From contig JACRIL010000102.1 in assembly GCA_016235825.1 (NCBI GenBank), positions 751 to 64,750 on the forward strand: 64,000 bases of DNA, in the 5' to 3' direction. This document shows positions 4,318-63,126 of the stretch, piece after piece; positions within the stretch are counted from its first letter, which is position 1, and every line of letters begins with the position of its first letter. The position numbers and the translations under genes are program-made. The notes below the pieces were generated by a model. The model was not told the DNA's origin, searched no databases, and saw only the letters and a program-made list of their open reading frames with translations. Origin of the DNA: Planctomycetota bacterium. Its GTDB lineage: Bacteria > Planctomycetota > Phycisphaerae > SM23-33.

Positions 4318-5415
4318 ATGTCCCGGAGGCGAAAGATAACCTGGCTTGTCGTCCTGCTGGTCCTGGCCGGCGGCTCCGGCGGTTATTGCTGGTACTGGCG
4401 GTCCACCGCCGTCGACCGCAAGGTCCGCCAACTTGTCTACGAAGCCGCAGGATACCCGGACACAAGGACAGAAAGAATCCTCAGGAAAATGAAACTGGAT
4501 TTCCTGATCCGCGAAAAGCCAAAATCCAGAAGAGATGATGGAATGATGTTTTGGGAAGAGAGCGTTATAGTCAAGGAAATTGAAGCTATCGGTATTGCTG
4601 CCACACCAGAACTCCTTTCTATGCTTAAAGACGAGAATAACGATATACGCTATAAGGCTGCCGAATTCCTCGGTCGGATCAGAGACGCAAGGTCGATTGA
4701 ACCCTTGATACAGATACTGCAGACAGAACATGATTTAAAAGTTTGAAGATTTTTACCTTACGTTCTTAGTTGGTTTGGGGACAAAAGAGTGGTAGATCCG
4801 CTGATTATGGCAATGCAGAAGGATTCAGATTCAGAGGTTCGTTGCCACTCAGCTATCGCCCTCGCTAAACTTGGCGACAAAAGGGCGGTAGACCCGCTGA
4901 TCCGGGCAATGCGGAATGATTCAGATTCACAAGTACGTTGGTATTCAATTATTGCCCTTGATGAACTTGGTGACAAAAGAGCGGCTGTACCGTTGATAGA
5001 GATATTGCAGAAAAATGAAATAGGGTATGTCCGACGACATGCAGCTGAAGTCCTTGGGAAACTGGGCGACACAAGAGCATTAGAACCACTGATTGAGGCA
5101 ATGCAGAAGGATGCTGATAGGAATGTCCGATATGCTTCGGTAACAGCTCTTGGCAAACTGGGTGACAAAAAAGCTTTTGAGCCTCTCATGCAAGCTTTGG
5201 CAAAGGATAGGGATGAAGATCATTTTATTCAAGGATACGCGGCAGTCGCCCTTGGCGAACTTGGCGATCCTCGCGCATTAAATGCAGTTGAAGACGCATA
5301 TAAAAATGATTTTGACAAGACTTCGCATCAATTCTACGAGGCAGCGATAGCGAAGCTCAAGTCCGCCGCGACGAGGCCGGGGGAGGTTGGCACGCGGCCG
5401 GCGGGAAAACTATAA
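4318..5415 (+). pseudogene. membrane-anchored HEAT (PBS-lyase type) repeat protein interrupted by an in-frame TGA at 4744-4746
   Basis: ORFs 4318..4746 and 4789..5415 are in the same frame. The 31-aa repeats D.(E/Q)VR......AL..LGD.RA..PLI continue straight across the stop (HDLKV*RFLPYVLSWFGDKRVVDPLI). The stop aligns with the conserved Arg of the VR motif. This is a low-GC region. Confidence 0.6.
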
Positions 5416-11677: not shown

Positions 11678-11908
11678 CAGGGCGTTTGAAAGTAGCACGG
11701 CCCCTGAGCGAAGCAGAACGGGGGAATGGTTGCACCAGGTTCTGAGTTCTTTGCGGATTCAGCGTAACCATGTTTAAGGCCCGCAGGGCCGGCAGATAGT
11801 AGCCCCGGGTGCAGCGAGTCCGCCGTCAGGCGGACGAAGCGCAACCCGGGGTATGATGGCCATTAAATGGATGCCTGAATATTCGCTCGCGACACGGCAG
11901 AAGAACCT
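11678..11908 (+). repeat. two tandem family-1 repeat units (11678-11765 and 11774-11908)
   Basis: The first unit aligns with 4085-4190. The second aligns over ~135 nt with 27911-28050 and contains the long hairpin CCCCGGGTGCAGCGAGTCCGCC-GTCA-GGCGGACGAAGCGCAACCCGGGG. Confidence 0.8.
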
Positions 11909-13870: not shown

Positions 13871-14087
13871 CGCTTCAGGGTTTCTGCCGTGTCCGACAGG
13901 CGGTTAGATTGAAAGGCCGATACGCCCGTTTCGGGAGGCAAGCGCGTGTTGCTCCGGCGACAGCCAGCCGCCCACTTGAAATAACGGGTCTTTCAAGCAG
14001 CCGCCACCGGCACAAAGGCGGACGCCCGGGCAATTTGGACGATGCACCTCTGTGCATCAGCCCACGGCTTGCCGTGGGCTTTTTTTT
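13871..14087 (+). ncRNA. candidate ~220-nt structured small RNA (family unassigned), or a terminated leader upstream of prfB
   Basis: Bounded by the promoter above and a strong intrinsic terminator. Long-range pairing 13899-13918 / 13986-14005 (GGCGG..TTGAAAGGCC with GGGTCTTTCAA..CCGCC). Internal hairpins CCCG-TTT-CGGG and GATGCAC-CTCT-GTGCATC. No convincing ORF. Confidence 0.45.
14059..14087 (+). terminator. Rho-independent terminator
   Basis: AGCCCACG-GCTTGC-CGTGGGCT followed by an eight-T run. Confidence 0.8.
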
Positions 14088-27668: not shown

Positions 27669-27711
27669 CATGGGCGTCTCGCCCATGAGCATCACGGCCG
27701 TCCCGGCCGTG
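27669..27711. repeat. two 19-nt palindromic hairpins immediately after the stop codon
   Basis: CATGGGCG-TCT-CGCCCATG (27669-27687) and CACGGCCG-TCC-CGGCCGTG (27693-27711). The same modules occur at 37285-37372. Confidence 0.85.
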
Positions 27712-28291: not shown

Positions 28292-28446
28292 CATTTGAAA
28301 GTCAAGCCCCGTCTGCCGGCGGCGGGATCGAAAATTTGAAACTTCATCGGATGGAGGTTTTCCCCGGGTTTCGCTTCGTCCGCCTGACGGCGGACTGCGT
28401 TGCACCCGGGGCTACTTTCTGCCGGCTCTTCGAGCCTTCAAACTGG
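28292..28446. repeat. family-1 units (28292-28340 +, 28362-28446 -)
   Basis: The reverse complement of 28362-28446 is ccagtttgaaggctcgaagagccggcagaaAGTAGCCccgggtgcaacgcagtccgccgtcaggcggacgaagcgaaacccgggg. It is nearly identical to the 11.8-kb hairpin. Confidence 0.8.
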
Positions 28447-32211: not shown

Positions 32212-32403
32212 AGGCTCGAAGAGCCGGTAGACAGTAGCCGTAGGCGTAAGCCTACGGTACGGATTGCTCCAGGATAAAGAGCCTCGGAGAGGCGACAGAA
32301 ATTTCTGAAAGTCTGTGCCGCCTCGTCGAGGCTCAAATCATAATGGGCCTGAATTCCGGAGGCTTACGCCTCCGGCTACTCTCTTCCAACCCTTCGGGTT
32401 TGG
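32212..32403. repeat. ~190-bp foldback built from two inverted family-1 units flanking a central imperfect hairpin
   Basis: The 32212-32262 unit is ggctcgaagagccggtagacAGTAGCCgtaggcGTAAgcctacgg. The central hairpin is 32278-32334 (GAGCCTCGGAGAGGCG...CGCCTCGTCGAGGCTC). The reverse complement of 32355-32403 is acccgaagggttggaagagAGTAGCCggaggcGTAAgcctccgg. Confidence 0.75.
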
Positions 32404-37284: not shown

Positions 37285-37372
37285 CGTGGCACGGGCATCT
37301 TGCCCGTGTGTTCCATGGGCGTCTCGCCCATGCACGTTCGCAGCTTCTCACGGCCGGGACGGCTGTGCCACG
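37285..37372. repeat. array of three 19-nt palindromic hairpins enclosed by CGTGGCA/TGCCACG
   Basis: CACGGGCA-TCT-TGCCCGTG (37290-37308), CATGGGCG-TCT-CGCCCATG (37314-37332) and CACGGCCG-GGA-CGGCTGTG (37349-37367). The array starts 17 nt after the asnB stop. Confidence 0.85.
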
Positions 37373-38735: not shown

Positions 38736-38811
38736 CCCCCTGCTGGCGCAGGGGGCTTTATGATCGGTTCGCCGACGGATTTGTTTTAAAGCCCCGCATG
38801 TAAATGCGGGG
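38736..38811. repeat. family-2 hairpin pair (B then A module)
   Basis: CCCCCTGC-TGGC-GCAGGGGGCTTTATGA, then a 22-nt spacer with a CGG-TTCG-CCG mini-hairpin, then TTTTAAAGCCCCGCAT-GTAA-ATGCGGGGATGC. The same modules form the ends of the 61971-62370 foldback. Confidence 0.8.
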
Positions 38812-38857
38812 ATGCCGCGTTGAAATTCGAGAGTATGTTTCCAGCGGAGAAGAAATA

Positions 38858-60529: not shown

Positions 60530-61954
60530 ATGCCTGAGAATCTTCGGAGGTTGTCGATGTCGGCGGCGGCGATGATGCTGGCGCTGCCGGCCGGGTTATT
60601 CGCACAGCCGGACCAGCCGGCGGGACAGAACGTCTCGGCGGCGCTGGCCCTGGCGGCCCAGAAGGCCGCCAAATCCCTCGCCGTCGTCGACTGCACCATC
60701 ACCGACGAGCCGGGCCAGACCAGACAGATGTTGGGGCCGGGAGCCTGCATCGACGCAAAAGGCGTACTCATGACCTACGCGATCGACCCGGTGGTGCAGC
60801 CCGACAAGATCACAAAAATCGAGATCGTCCTGCCCGGCCAGCAGGGCAAGCGGCTGGCGGCGAAGTTGCTGGGCATAGATCCCCTTTCGGGCCTGAGCTT
60901 CGTCCAGGCGACCGACAAATACGACTGGCAGGCGCTGGAGCAGGACCGTCAGGTGCAGATCGCTCCGGGCCGGCTTGTAACATCCGCCGGGCCCATGATG
61001 TCCGAGGCGGGTTTCCCGGTCTATCTCGGGGCGGCATGGGTGTCTGTGGAACTGCGGGCGCCGGGCAGACTGGCGATGGTAACCGGCGGATCGCTCTGCT
61101 CGGCCGGGTCGCCCGTGTTCGATTCGGCGGGGAAAATGATAGGGCTGGTCGGCCCGCAGAAATATCTGCCGGTCGATCTGGCAAGCGGGCAGGGCGAGGC
61201 GACGGTGGCCCTCCGCGGCCAGGCGCAGACCGTCTGGTTTATGCCGATTGCGGAGCTCGCCTATATTCTTGACAACATTCCAACCGACGGCAGGCAGCGG
61301 AGGCCCGCCTGGATAGGCGCGGCGAGGTTCGAGACCGTGGGCAAAGACTACGCCGCAATCCTCAAGCTGGGCAAACCCGGCGTGATGATCGACCAGGTGA
61401 TACCGGGCGACGCGGCCGACAAGGCCAGCCTGAAAAACCGCGATGTAATAATCGGCGTGGAAGGCAAGGACATCGAGTCATTCTCCGGCGATCTGATAAC
61501 CGCCTCGAACCTGGCCAGGATGTTCAACATCATGCCGGTCGGCGGAAAGGTCAAGCTGACCGTCATGGACGGGGCCACCAGCAAGGTCAGGGACGTTGAA
61601 TTGACCCTGACCGTCATGCCCGTCCTGCCGGGCGAGGCAAGGCGCTACGTCAGCCTGCCGCTTGGCTTTGCCGCAAGGGAAAAGGTTCCGCTGGACAGGT
61701 TTCTGGACAAAAGCCCGACGGCCGATACCGCCGGACTGGTCGTGCTCGAGGTCGTAGATCGCGGGCTGGCAGCACTGTCGGGCCTGGCCGCCGGAGACGT
61801 CATTGTCTCCGTGGGCGACAAGAACATCCTTACGGTCCAGGCCCTCAAGCAGGCCATCGACGATGCCGCCGGAGCAAGGCCGCCCCAGGACATCAAGCTC
61901 ATCATCCGCCGCGGAAACCAGGGACTGACCGTTACCATCCAGCCGCCCAGATGA
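60530..61954 (+). CDS. secreted trypsin-fold/HtrA-like protein with two PDZ domains, catalytic His not evident
   Basis: It has a signal peptide and a GGAGG SD. GGSLCSAGSPVFDSAGKMIGLV is a protease-like Ser region. PDZ regions are GVMIDQVIPGDAADKASLKNRDVIIGVEG and GLVVLEVVDRGLAALSGLAAGDVIVSVGD. Confidence 0.6.
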   Translation: MPENLRRLSMSAAAMMLALPAGLFAQPDQPAGQNVSAALALAAQKAAKSLAVVDCTITDEPGQTRQMLGPGACIDAKGVLMTYAIDPVVQPDKITKIEIVLPGQQGKRLAAKLLGIDPLSGLSFVQATDKYDWQALEQDRQVQIAPGRLVTSAGPMMSEAGFPVYLGAAWVSVELRAPGRLAMVTGGSLCSAGSPVFDSAGKMIGLVGPQKYLPVDLASGQGEATVALRGQAQTVWFMPIAELAYILDNIPTDGRQRRPAWIGAARFETVGKDYAAILKLGKPGVMIDQVIPGDAADKASLKNRDVIIGVEGKDIESFSGDLITASNLARMFNIMPVGGKVKLTVMDGATSKVRDVELTLTVMPVLPGEARRYVSLPLGFAAREKVPLDRFLDKSPTADTAGLVVLEVVDRGLAALSGLAAGDVIVSVGDKNILTVQALKQAIDDAAGARPPQDIKLIIRRGNQGLTVTIQPPR

Positions 61955-61970
61955 CGGCGCCGCATATTTT

Positions 61971-62370
61971 TAAAGCCCCGCATGTTAATGCGGGGATGCT
62001 GTTGTGATTTAGAGTCCCTAATGCTCTGTTGAAAAGCTTTGTTTAGCCCGATTCATCGGGCTTGGGTTGTTTGACAGGCCCCCGCTTTAGCGGGGGTAAA
62101 TGGCGGCGAAACGTCTTCTTTTTTTGTCTTGTAATGTGTCGGTTTGTCAGATTGGGACGATTTAGCACCGGAATATACTATTATGCTTGAACATAATAAA
62201 ATATCACAAAATAAAACAAGCGAAATGCCTCATCGCTGAACCCCCGCTGAAGCGGGGGCCTGTTACACGACACAGGCAGATCGGTGTGGCTTTTCAAGAG
62301 AGCATTTGGAACTCTTAAATAATAACACACGTCCCCCTGCTCGCGCAGGGGGCTTTATGAATCTTACATC
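61971..62370. repeat. ~400-bp foldback: two ~130-nt imperfect inverted arms, each with several GC hairpins, around an AT-rich ~134-nt core
   Basis: The left arm is taaagCCCCGCATgttaATGCGGGGatgc...agagtccctaatgctctgttgaaaagc...gacaggCCCCCGCtttaGCGGGGGt. The reverse complement of the right arm is tcataaagCCCCCTGCgcgaGCAGGGGGac...agagttccaaatgctctcttgaaaagc...aacaggCCCCCGCttcaGCGGGGGt. Confidence 0.8.
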
Positions 62371-62385
62371 AGAAAGGAACAGGCA

Positions 62386-63126
62386 ATGGAACAGGCAGAC
62401 ATTCAGAATCGGATCGAGGAACTTTCAGGCAGGCTGGACAGGCTGGCGGCGAAGAACCGCAGGCTGCGGCTGATCGGCGTGGGCCTGGGCGCATGCCTTG
62501 CCGCGGCGGTGGCGTTTCACTTCGCATCGGCCGGGCCGCTGGCCGTCGCGCAGGAAAAGGCCGAGCCGGGACCGGTCAAGGCGACCAGCTTCCAGGTCGT
62601 GGATGACTCGGGCAAACTGATGGCCGAGCTTAAATCCAAGGACAAATCCGCCACCCTGGCACTGATGGGTTCCGAAGGCAAGCCCAGGCTGATTTTGGTC
62701 GGCGGGGACAATCCCGGCGTGCTGGCTCTCGATCAGGACGGAACCACCCGCGCTATATTCGGCTACGAAAAGAAGTCGGGCCCGCTCATAGTTTTGAAGG
62801 ATTCCAAAAACAACAATCGCCTTGTCATGGGCGGGGACGACAAGTCGATGAGCCTGGTCCTGCTGTCGCCTGAAAAGAAGAACAGGCTTATTGTTTCGGG
62901 CGCCGACGCCCCCGCCGTGCTCATGTGCGACGAGAACGCCACGCCCAGGACGATTGTCGGGTTCGAGGGCAAGTCCGGGCCGTTCATGGCGCTGCGGGAT
63001 GAGAACGGCAAGAACCGAATGGTAGCCGCCTTCGGCGGAAACACGATCGGCTACTCTGTGCTGGACGAGGACGGCAAGCCGGTCTGGACGTCCAAGTCGG
63101 AGAAATCCGAGAAGACCGACAAGTAA
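62386..63126 (+). CDS. hypothetical membrane-anchored protein with internal beta-strand-like repeats
   Basis: Coiled N-terminus, then the TM segment LIGVGLGACLAAAVAFHF, then repeated G(K/T).R(L/A)I.(V/G).. units of about 20-25 aa (KPRLILVGGD, NNRLVMGGDD, KNRLIVSGAD, KNRMVAAFGG). Confidence 0.5.
   Translation: MEQADIQNRIEELSGRLDRLAAKNRRLRLIGVGLGACLAAAVAFHFASAGPLAVAQEKAEPGPVKATSFQVVDDSGKLMAELKSKDKSATLALMGSEGKPRLILVGGDNPGVLALDQDGTTRAIFGYEKKSGPLIVLKDSKNNNRLVMGGDDKSMSLVLLSPEKKNRLIVSGADAPAVLMCDENATPRTIVGFEGKSGPFMALRDENGKNRMVAAFGGNTIGYSVLDEDGKPVWTSKSEKSEKTDK

What the first reader, a model, noticed from the sequence alone, without database searches (positions are those of the whole stretch)
61971..62370. 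400-bp foldback element with ~130-nt imperfect inverted arms and an AT-rich core, upstream of an orphan gene
The left arm (61971 to about 62100) and the reverse complement of the right arm (62370 down to about 62235) align module by module. The modules are:
- AAAGCCCC-stem-loop (CCCCGCAT/ATGCGGGG versus CCCCCTGC/GCAGGGGG);
- AGAGTYCCWAATGCTCTSTTGAAAAGC;
- a variable hairpin;
- ACAGGCCCCCGCTTYAGCGGGGGT.
The 134-nt centre is strongly AT-rich in a GC-rich genome and contains TTGAAC...ATAATA-like promoter hexamers. The element fills the whole gap between the PDZ-protein stop and the ATG at 62386. Possibilities are a foldback MITE, a pair of convergent or divergent structured sRNA genes, or a complex regulatory region.
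Basis: seen in the sequence. Interest (0 to 1): 0.5.

Follow-up and report, generated by a model that had tools for sequence, protein, structure and literature searches.

The report
IS5-derived MITE between repeated hairpins
The 400-bp "foldback" is an ordinary small transposon remnant: a 303-bp MITE that carries the end sequences of an IS5-family insertion sequence but no transposase gene, and that landed between two GC-rich hairpins which are themselves a dispersed repeat of this Planctomycetes genome.

Summary
The inverted symmetry is real and far beyond chance. It is a composite of two unrelated things.

- **The element.** Window 62012-62314 (303 bp) is a non-autonomous IS5-family element (MITE). 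It has 26-bp terminal inverted repeats (GAGTyCCwAATGCTCTsTTGAAAAGC, 23/26 identical), inverted similarity continuing about 85 nt inward, and a 142-bp AT-rich core. It has no transposase and is flanked by a perfect TTA direct repeat.
- **The link to IS5.** The same terminal sequence lies directly after the stop codon of IS5-family DDE transposases in Acetobacteraceae. It also ends multi-copy elements at contig ends in one metagenome, where flanks diverge right after ...ACTC|TAA. Short transposase-less pairs of it occur in Sumerlaeota and Phycisphaeraceae MAGs.
- **The outer module.** Both hairpins recur almost identically at 38736-38815 with no IS ends between them, so they are a separate REP-like or terminator-like repeat.

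Rfam finds nothing, and the two arms do not share a fold, so a pair of sRNA genes is not supported. The downstream gene is not an orphan. Copy number in the source genome and transcription could not be tested. Verdict: a new member of a known kind, of low interest.

The parts
61971..61999 (+). hp1: GC-rich hairpin module TAAAGCCCCGCATgttaATGCGGGGATGC. It is flanking host repeat, not part of the MITE.
   Evidence: Perfect 8-bp stem. A 28/29-identical copy lies at 38787-38815. A same-organism Logan contig ends inside it.
62009..62011 (.). Left copy of the TTA target-site duplication
   Evidence: Read directly from the sequence. It is identical to 62315-62317. Related elements elsewhere are flanked by TAA or TTA at the same position.
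62012..62314 (.). The non-autonomous IS5-family element (MITE), 303 bp, GC 0.47
   Evidence: TIRs, TSD and absence of a transposase. ssDNA fold z = -9.7.
62012..62037 (+). Left terminal inverted repeat GAGTCCCTAATGCTCTGTTGAAAAGC
   Evidence: 93-96% identical over 25-33 nt to the element ends in L001, L002, L010, L016, L017, L023, L024, L025 and L035. Best hit in the whole window for an nhmmer profile of Acetobacteraceae IS5 left ends, E = 0.0084.
62038..62097 (+). Left subterminal arm, with hairpins at 62045-62062 and 62079-62096 (CCCCCGCtttaGCGGGGG)
   Evidence: (I1).
62098..62239 (.). AT-rich core (GC 0.37) with promoter-like hexamer pairs on both strands
   Evidence: No matches in plasmid or phage collections.
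62240..62288 (-). Right subterminal arm, with hairpin at 62241-62258 (CCCCCGCtgaaGCGGGGG)
   Evidence: (I1).
62289..62314 (-). Right terminal inverted repeat (reverse complement GAGTTCCAAATGCTCTCTTGAAAAGC), 23/26 identical to the left TIR
   Evidence: Second-best nhmmer hit in the window.
62315..62317 (.). Right copy of the TTA target-site duplication
62333..62360 (+). hp2: GC-rich hairpin module CCCCCTGCtcgcGCAGGGGGCTTTATGA. It is flanking host repeat, terminator-like on the + strand, and lies 26 nt upstream of the ATG at 62386.
   Evidence: Perfect 8-bp stem. A 26/28-identical copy lies at 38736-38763. The copy at 38736 passes the terminator-like scan.
38736..38815 (+). Second locus carrying hp2 and then hp1 (36 nt apart, no IS ends), between a glycosyltransferase gene and a PAS histidine-kinase gene

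Best explanation

**What it keeps and lacks.** It keeps only what a DDE transposase needs in cis: the roughly 26-bp terminal inverted repeats. It encodes no transposase.

**How it moved (inferred).** A full-length relative elsewhere in the genome supplied the transposase in trans. Staggered cutting of a TTA trinucleotide produced the TTA...TTA duplication.

**Where it landed.** It inserted in the A/T-rich spacer between two pre-existing GC-rich hairpins, hp1 and hp2. These belong to a separate dispersed hairpin repeat of this genome (REP-like or terminator-like). Because hp1 and hp2 are themselves inverted relatives of each other, the composite looks like one 400-bp foldback.

**Shown versus inferred.**
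- Shown: TIR identity with the ends of transposase-bearing IS5 elements, the TSD, the lack of coding capacity, and the independent second locus of hp1/hp2.
- Inferred: trans-mobilisation, the order of events, and any effect on the downstream gene. The core has promoter-like sites facing both ways, so read-out into the gene at 62386 is possible but untested.
For: 1. **Cross-genome matches.** An exact-pattern scan for the arm core found L001 and L002 in GTDB genomes (about 0.3 expected by chance by my own estimate from collection size). A shorter pattern on metagenomes gave 31 loci, of which a subset (L010, L016, L017, L023, L024, L025, L035) share extended similarity.
2. **Sharp boundary at contig ends.** In metagenome Ga0272442/Ga0315538 the motif lies 60-110 nt from true contig ends in L010, L016, L017, L025 and L035. 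The copies are 98-100% identical inward and unrelated outward, starting right after ...GGNACTC|TAA. This is the signature of a multi-copy mobile element with a sharp end.
3. **Adjacent transposase.** Inward of that end is the 3' end of an ORF...LTHNLMIIRRAA*. In Roseomonas plasmids and in L042/L043 the homologous end follows ...LTHNLMLLA..* of a protein that matches PF01609 DDE_Tnp_1 (8.9e-18) and NF033579 IS5-family transposase (3.2e-27). Its relatives number over 1,200, mostly on roughly 1-kb contigs.
4. **Profile search.** A profile of four Acetobacteraceae IS left ends finds, in the whole 64-kb window, exactly the two TIRs as its top two hits.
5. **Target duplication.** TTA sits at 62009-62011 and 62315-62317. 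One outward read is TAA and the other TTA, as a direct duplication of a non-palindromic triplet requires. A TAA duplication and a three-nucleotide insertion site are reported for IS5-family IS427/IS1031-group elements (PMC2516522).
6. **No transposase.** tblastn finds no transposase similarity anywhere in the window. The longest stop-free stretch in the element is 58 codons.
7. **Other MITE-like pairs.** Short transposase-less inverted pairs of the same TIR occur in L001 (268 nt between arms), L024 and L002.
8. **Generic MITE traits.** The element is small, has an AT-rich core, is intergenic and forms a stable stem-loop, as described in PMC10969869.
9. **Outer hairpins are separate.** hp1 and hp2 recur at 38736-38815 without the IS ends.
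Against: - Only one copy is present in the 64 kb available. The source MAG is not in the searchable genome or metagenome collections, so multi-copy status in this genome and a resident full-length IS are unproven.
- Homology to transposase-bearing elements is confined to about 25-32 nt. Similarity of the subterminal arms to IS left ends is not significant.
- No empty site could be recovered from a relative.
- In the metagenome copies every observed flank reads TAA (5 of 5). This is somewhat more uniform than random orientation predicts (about 1 in 16), so the triplet could partly belong to the end rather than to the duplication.
- TSDs are not recognisable around the decayed L002 and L024 elements.
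Confidence: 0.85

Rival explanations
1. Two divergently transcribed paralogous small-RNA genes. Promoters in the AT-rich core fire outward, each transcript folds into a 5' CCCCCGC hairpin, a middle hairpin and the AGAG...CUCU hairpin, and each ends at the outward-facing terminator-like hairpin (hp1 on the - strand, hp2 on the + strand).
For: - Promoter-like hexamer pairs occur on both strands of the core (3 found against 0.5 +/- 0.6 expected).
- hp1 and hp2 are each followed, in the outward direction, by CTTTA.
- Each arm folds better than shuffles (z = -4.2 and -5.5).
- MITE transcripts are known to give sRNAs in some bacteria (PMC10969869).
Against: - No Rfam family scores near threshold.
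- The predicted folds of the two arms agree only in the perfect hairpins and differ in the middle.
- The only block conserved in other genomes is the transposon end, and there it abuts a transposase stop codon.
- The supposed terminators are an independent repeat found elsewhere without the arms.
- The U-tracts are only 3 nt long.
Confidence: 0.04
2. An in-situ wreck of a single full-length IS copy that lost its interior by deletion. On this reading it is a dead remnant, not a member of a transposing MITE family.
For: - There is a single copy in 64 kb and no copy-number data.
- The two TIRs have already diverged (23/26).
- Decayed and frameshifted IS copies of this group are common.
Against: - The two arms are similar to each other for about 85 nt inward. 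The two ends of the full-length IS share only about 34 nt (L025 against L010/L016/L017/L023), so a simple internal deletion would not give such long arms.
- The AT-rich core has no tblastn similarity to the transposase.
- The TSD is intact.
- Similar short two-ended elements exist in three other lineages.
Confidence: 0.09
3. One larger ~400-bp foldback element whose true ends are hp1 and hp2, with the IS5-like block being internal.
For: hp1 (reverse complement) and hp2 resemble each other (CATCCCC...GGGGCTTTA), which extends the inverted symmetry to 61971/62360 (I3, 5).
Against: - hp1 and hp2 occur together at 38736-38815 in the opposite order, 36 nt apart, with nothing resembling the arms between them.
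- In every other genome the similarity stops at ...ACTC|TWA.
- The TTA duplication lies at the inner boundary.
Confidence: 0.02

Closest known systems
IS5-family insertion sequences of the IS1031/IS427 groups (for example IS1031, IS1237)
   Same: - The terminal inverted repeat begins with GAG.
- There is a 3-bp duplication of a T-N-A triplet. A TAA duplication is reported for IS1237 and a three-nucleotide insertion site for the IS1031 group (PMC2516522).
- The TIR is shared with elements that encode a DDE_Tnp_1 / NF033579 transposase, often as two frameshifted ORFs.
   Different: The window element has no transposase and is 303 bp instead of about 0.9-1.1 kb. I could not assign it to a named ISfinder element, because no ISfinder search was available and a literature search for the TIR string gave 0 papers. 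The 'GAG ends' attribute of the IS1031 group is from my own recollection of ISfinder tables.
Bacterial MITEs such as the Correia elements of Neisseria and QMITE2 of Coxiella
   Same: Small size, TIRs of about 25 bp, short duplication at an A/T target, intergenic and often just upstream of genes, stable stem-loop when single-stranded, sigma-70-like promoter motifs inside (PMC10969869).
   Different: Different TIR sequence and parent IS, and a different host phylum (Planctomycetes MAG). Here the inverted similarity extends about 85 nt, well beyond the TIR. Copy number is unknown.
REP/BIME-type repetitive extragenic palindromes (applies to hp1 and hp2 only)
   Same: Modules of about 28 nt made of GC-rich perfect hairpins. 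They are extragenic, occur in two related 'types' in alternating orientation, and are found at more than one locus. Insertion sequences are known to target such palindromes (my own knowledge: IS1397, IS621 and similar elements).
   Different: Only two loci were seen. No RAYT transposase was looked for, and no conserved 5' GTAG-like tetranucleotide was established. They could equally be ordinary intrinsic terminators that share sequence.

Membership tests
MITE (non-autonomous IS derivative) | Small size (tens to a few hundred bp) | tested here: met
   303 bp, 62012-62314.
MITE (non-autonomous IS derivative) | Terminal inverted repeats | tested here: met
   26-nt TIRs, 23/26 identical. The 30-nt arm pair is 87% complementary.
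MITE (non-autonomous IS derivative) | Target-site duplication flanking the TIRs | tested here: met
   TTA at 62009-62011 and 62315-62317. Chance expectation for a 3-nt match is about 1/64, higher in A/T-rich sequence.
MITE (non-autonomous IS derivative) | No transposase gene | tested here: met
   No tblastn hit to the IS5 transposase in the window. Longest stop-free stretch is 58 codons.
MITE (non-autonomous IS derivative) | TIRs match those of an autonomous IS that can act in trans | tested here: met
   The same end lies next to IS5-family transposase genes in L040-L043 and in the metagenome copies. Actual trans-mobilisation was not tested.
MITE (non-autonomous IS derivative) | Multiple dispersed copies in the host genome | not testable with these tools
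   One copy in the 64-kb window. The source MAG is absent from the searchable collections.
IS5 family (IS1031/IS427-like group) | DDE_Tnp_1 transposase encoded between the TIRs | tested here: not met
   Absent from the window element, so it is a derivative and not an IS. Present in relatives that carry the same TIR.
IS5 family (IS1031/IS427-like group) | 3-bp T-N-A duplication | tested here: met
   TTA/TTA in the window. TAA or TTA next to the ends in L001, L010, L016, L017, L023, L025, L040, L041 and L043. Literature: PMC2516522.
Structured sRNA gene pair | Match to a described RNA family | tested here: not met
   Rfam 15 search at E <= 10. Best hit was CRISPR-DR46 at 29.7 bits against a gathering threshold of 50, covering only the left-arm hairpin.
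Structured sRNA gene pair | Common secondary structure supported by the two copies and by homologues | tested here: not met
   MFE folds of the two arms differ between the terminal hairpins. Homologues share only the TIR.
Structured sRNA gene pair | Discrete transcripts with a defined promoter and terminator | not testable with these tools
   Only consensus-like hexamers are available. No expression data.
REP/BIME-like repeats (hp1, hp2) | Short GC-rich imperfect palindromes, extragenic, repeated | tested here: met
   8-bp perfect stems at two intergenic loci, 28/29 and 26/28 identical.
REP/BIME-like repeats (hp1, hp2) | High copy number and an associated RAYT (Y1) transposase | not tested
   The genome is not available and the window's ORFs were not screened for PF01797. 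A same-organism Logan contig breaks inside hp1, which is only suggestive of further copies.

The most novel reading that the evidence does not exclude
The MITE has been co-opted. Its AT-rich core acts as a bidirectional promoter. The outward-facing hairpins hp1 and hp2 either terminate two MITE-derived small RNAs, or hp2 serves as a leader or attenuator for the downstream repeat-protein gene at 62386. Alternatively, this IS5 lineage specifically targets the spacer of REP-like hairpin doublets in Planctomycetes.
Probability: 0.1. Interest if true: 0.35.

Novelty: new member of a known kind. Interest (0 to 1): 0.15.

Why it matters
**For annotation.** The finding explains an odd 400-bp structured gap as transposon debris plus host hairpin repeats, so it should not be annotated as an sRNA or riboswitch candidate.

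**For IS and MITE detection.** It gives the terminal sequence (TWA|GAGTNCCTAATGCTCTGTTGAAA) of an IS5 lineage. This lineage is spread across Acetobacteraceae, Planctomycetes/Phycisphaerae and Sumerlaeota, and repeatedly spawns short transposase-less derivatives. That is useful for masking IS and MITE sequences and for explaining contig breaks in MAGs.

**For local biology.** The insertion lies 71 nt upstream of a gene start and carries promoter-like sites. It could alter that gene's expression, as Correia elements do, but nothing here shows that it does.

Tried and rejected
**Rfam**
- An E-value search on 61700-62700 and a gathering-threshold search on the whole window found nothing relevant at the locus.
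- An E-value search on the hp1/hp2 locus at 38.6-38.9 kb gave only sub-threshold noise.

**Viral contig scans**
- The TIR core gave 6 hits, all one phage coding-gene family (…YFFKRALGS…). These are chance matches.
- The inner hairpin, hp1 and hp2 gave 0 hits.

**BLAST and literature**
- blastn of the whole gap against plasmids and phages gave no match.
- A literature search for the TIR string gave 0 papers.

**Empty-site test**
- The orphan and PDZ proteins are not in the gene-position index.
- The 100%-identical Logan contig stops inside hp1.
- The 80%-identical relative's contig stops 59 nt after the stop codon, with unrelated sequence.

**Do the MITE arms derive from the IS left end, including the transposase start?**
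- Pairwise scores reach only z of about 3-3.9 on GC hairpins.
- The MAFFT alignment is suggestive.
- The nhmmer profile supports only the TIR. I rate this inconclusive.

**Does the reconstructed empty-site spacer resemble the sequence upstream of hp2 at 38.7 kb?**
- Not significant: 319 of 2,000 shuffles score as well.

**Readings considered and dropped**
- An ECF-sigma (GGAAC-N17-CGTC) or sigma-54 promoter in the TIR. The key position is G, A, T or C in different copies and the downstream element is not conserved.
- Integron attC and dif sites. The defining motifs are absent, judged by reading the sequence.

**Metagenome hits judged to be chance**
- The L015/L029/L030/L031 group and the remaining roughly 20 metagenome hits are coding or unrelated sequence with 3-5 mismatches to the full TIR.

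Full report
**1. The observation**

The gap between the stop codon of a trypsin-PDZ protease gene (60530-61954; Pfam Trypsin_2 and PDZ) and the ATG at 62386 does contain long imperfect inverted arms.
- The repeat finder reports arm pairs 62060-62097/62240-62277 (38 nt, 84%), 62008-62037/62289-62318 (30 nt, 87%) and 61966-61979/62349-62362 (14 nt, 86%).
- Aligning the left arm (reverse complement) to the right arm gives 78% column identity.
- The two best modules each occur exactly twice in the window, against 0.00 expected.
- The centre has GC of about 0.37, against 0.60 for the window.
- Folded as single-stranded DNA, 62012-62314 gives z = -9.7.

So the description is correct and is not a chance feature.

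**2. What the arms are**

Rfam gives nothing at the locus. The host is a Planctomycetes MAG: the downstream protein is identical to HZA50_08165.

I used the best-conserved arm block as an exact pattern.
- GTDB genomes gave two hits, a Sumerlaeota MAG (L001) and a Phycisphaeraceae MAG (L002).
- A shorter pattern on metagenomes gave 31 loci. A subset (L010, L016, L017, L023, L024, L025, L035) share the whole block GGTTTTCAACAGAGCATTAGGNACTC.

In L010, L016, L017, L025 and L035 the block lies 60-110 nt from a genuine contig end. All-against-all blastn shows the copies are 98-100% identical on the inner side and unrelated on the outer side. The break falls immediately after ...ACTC TAA. This is how the end of a multi-copy mobile element looks in a short-read assembly.

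The inner side of four of these copies is the 3' end of an ORF...LTHNLMIIRRAA*. L025 shares only the terminal 34 nt and is therefore the other end.

**3. The parent element**

A blastn of that end against PLSDB plasmids hit Roseomonas plasmids under genes annotated 'transposase'.
- There...LTHNLMLLAEAA* is followed directly by TTTCAACAGAGCA....
- The protein matches PF01609 DDE_Tnp_1 (8.9e-18) and NCBIfam NF033579 'IS5 family transposase' (3.2e-27).
- More than 1,200 relatives exist, mostly on roughly 1-kb contigs.
- Two complete examples (L042, L043) show both ends with the same core, and TTA/TAA or related triplets outside them.
- An nhmmer profile built only from the four Acetobacteraceae left ends picks the two arm ends as its two best hits in the whole 64-kb window: 62011-62042 (E = 0.0084) and 62315-62292.

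The arm block is therefore the terminal inverted repeat of an IS5-family insertion sequence.

**4. Anatomy in the window**

| Coordinates | Feature |
|---|---|
| 62009-62011 | TTA |
| 62012-62037 | Left TIR, GAGTCCCTAATGCTCTGTTGAAAAGC |
| 62038-62097 | Subterminal arm with two hairpins |
| 62098-62239 | AT-rich core |
| 62240-62288 | Subterminal arm |
| 62289-62314 | Right TIR (23/26 identical to the left) |
| 62315-62317 | TTA |

- Read outward, one flank is TAA and the other TTA. A direct duplication of a non-palindromic triplet predicts exactly this.
- A three-nucleotide insertion site is described as a common feature of the IS1031 group of the IS5 family, and a 'TAA' duplication for IS1237, an IS427-group member (PMC2516522).
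- The window has no transposase-like sequence anywhere.
- The element's longest stop-free stretch is 58 codons.

Small size, TIRs, a TSD, no transposase, an AT-rich core, intergenic position and a stable stem-loop are the textbook MITE features (PMC10969869).

Short transposase-less inverted pairs of the same TIR also exist in L001 (arms 268 nt apart), L024 and L002. This IS lineage has therefore produced such derivatives repeatedly.

The two window arms resemble each other for about 85 nt, whereas the two ends of the full IS share only about 34 nt. This argues for a true foldback MITE rather than a simple internal deletion of one IS copy.

**5. The outermost module is something else**

A scan for perfect GC-rich hairpins showed that both outer hairpins recur 23 kb away.
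- hp2 (CCCCCTGC-nnnn-GCAGGGGGCTTTATGA) recurs at 38736-38763, 26/28 identical.
- hp1 (TAAAGCCCCGCAT-nnnn-ATGCGGGGATGC) recurs at 38787-38815, 28/29 identical.
- That locus lies between a glycosyltransferase gene and a PAS histidine-kinase gene, which are unrelated to the genes at the finding.
- There the order is hp2, 36 nt, hp1, and no IS end lies between them.

hp1 (reverse complement) and hp2 are variants of one pattern, CATCCCC-stem-loop-stem-GGGGCTTTA. That is why, with the MITE between them, they extend the apparent symmetry to 400 bp.

They are best described as a dispersed REP-like or terminator-like hairpin pair. The MITE inserted into the A/T-rich 31-nt spacer between them. A Logan contig from the same organism ends inside hp1, which fits further copies but proves nothing.

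**6. Rivals**

- **Divergent sRNA genes.** In favour: promoter-like hexamers on both strands of the core, and outward-facing hairpins followed by CUUUA. Against: no Rfam match, no shared fold between the arms apart from the perfect hairpins, conservation elsewhere limited to the transposase-binding end, and 'terminators' that belong to another repeat. I give this about 4%.
- **An in-situ IS wreck.** This cannot be excluded without copy-number data. I give it about 9%.
- **A single 400-bp element ending at hp1 and hp2.** The second hp1/hp2 locus and the position of the TSD contradict this.

**7. What could not be done**

- The source MAG is not in the searchable genome or metagenome collections. 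Copy number, a resident autonomous IS and an empty site are therefore untested.
- Similarity between the MITE's subterminal arms and IS left ends is inconclusive.
- No expression data exist.

**8. Side result**

The downstream 'orphan' has only itself in the word-indexed search. In the exhaustive HMMER search it has 1,241 relatives at E <= 0.001 and 54 at E <= 1e-10, with 25-40% identity, many over most of the length. It has no Pfam domain. It belongs to a widespread uncharacterised family and is not an orphan.

**9. Verdict**

This is a real feature, explained as an IS5-family MITE with a TTA duplication, sitting between two copies of a host hairpin repeat. It is a new member of a known kind and of low interest. 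Its value is mainly for annotation and for recognising this IS lineage's ends in MAG assemblies.

Noticed in passing
window 38736-38815: A second locus carries the same two GC-rich hairpin modules (hp2 then hp1, 36 nt apart), between a GT4 glycosyltransferase gene and a PAS histidine-kinase gene. It shows that hp1 and hp2 are a dispersed repeat independent of the MITE.
   Followed up: partly
window 32212-32257 (-) and 32356-32401 (+): Two Acido-Lenti-1 RNA motifs (RF01687, 43.9 and 47.6 bits, above gathering) lie in divergent orientation about 100 nt apart in an intergenic region. This is a second inverted pair of structured modules in the window, and it is found in a Planctomycetes MAG rather than in Acidobacteria or Lentisphaerae.
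   Followed up: no
window 13878-14028 (+): 6S RNA (RF00013, 49.2 bits), followed by a strong terminator hairpin at 14059-14080.
   Followed up: no
window 62386-63126 (+): The 'orphan' protein (N-terminal coiled segment, one TM helix, then repeated roughly 45-aa units) has no Pfam match, and only itself in the word-indexed search. It nevertheless has 1,241 distant relatives (E <= 0.001) in the exhaustive HMMER search, so it belongs to a widespread uncharacterised family.
   Followed up: partly
window 27669-27711 and 37290-37332: Tandem pairs of 8-bp-stem hairpins with 3-nt loops (CATGGGCGtctCGCCCATG next to CACGGCCGtccCGGCCGTG or CACGGGCAtctTGCCCGTG) recur at two loci. This is another small repeated hairpin family.
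   Followed up: no
window 11818-11835 and 28378-28395: The hairpin GTCCGCC-nnnn-GGCGGAC recurs at two sites in opposite orientation, with similar flanks (...GCGCTTC / GAAGCGC...). This is possibly a third dispersed palindromic repeat.
   Followed up: no
L045 1577-1616 (Logan SRR12113407 contig, same organism): The contig carrying the 100%-identical PDZ-protease gene terminates inside hp1. This is consistent with a repeat-induced or heterogeneity-induced assembly break at this hairpin.
   Followed up: no
L001 1240-1594; L002 ~4815-5002; L024 ~66-270: Short transposase-less elements bounded by the same IS5-type TIR occur in a Sumerlaeota MAG, a Phycisphaeraceae MAG and a metagenome contig. Their interiors are rich in hairpins with TGAA/TTCA loops (for example GCCCTGAAAGGGC, CAGCCTTTCAGGCTG), as in the window MITE (CCCCCGCTGAAGCGGGGG).
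   Followed up: partly
window 59077-60498 (+): The Lgt (prolipoprotein diacylglyceryl transferase) homologue is 473 aa, and its Pfam match is split into two stretches. It appears to carry a large insertion containing EF-hand-like D-x-D-x-D/N-G motifs.
   Followed up: no
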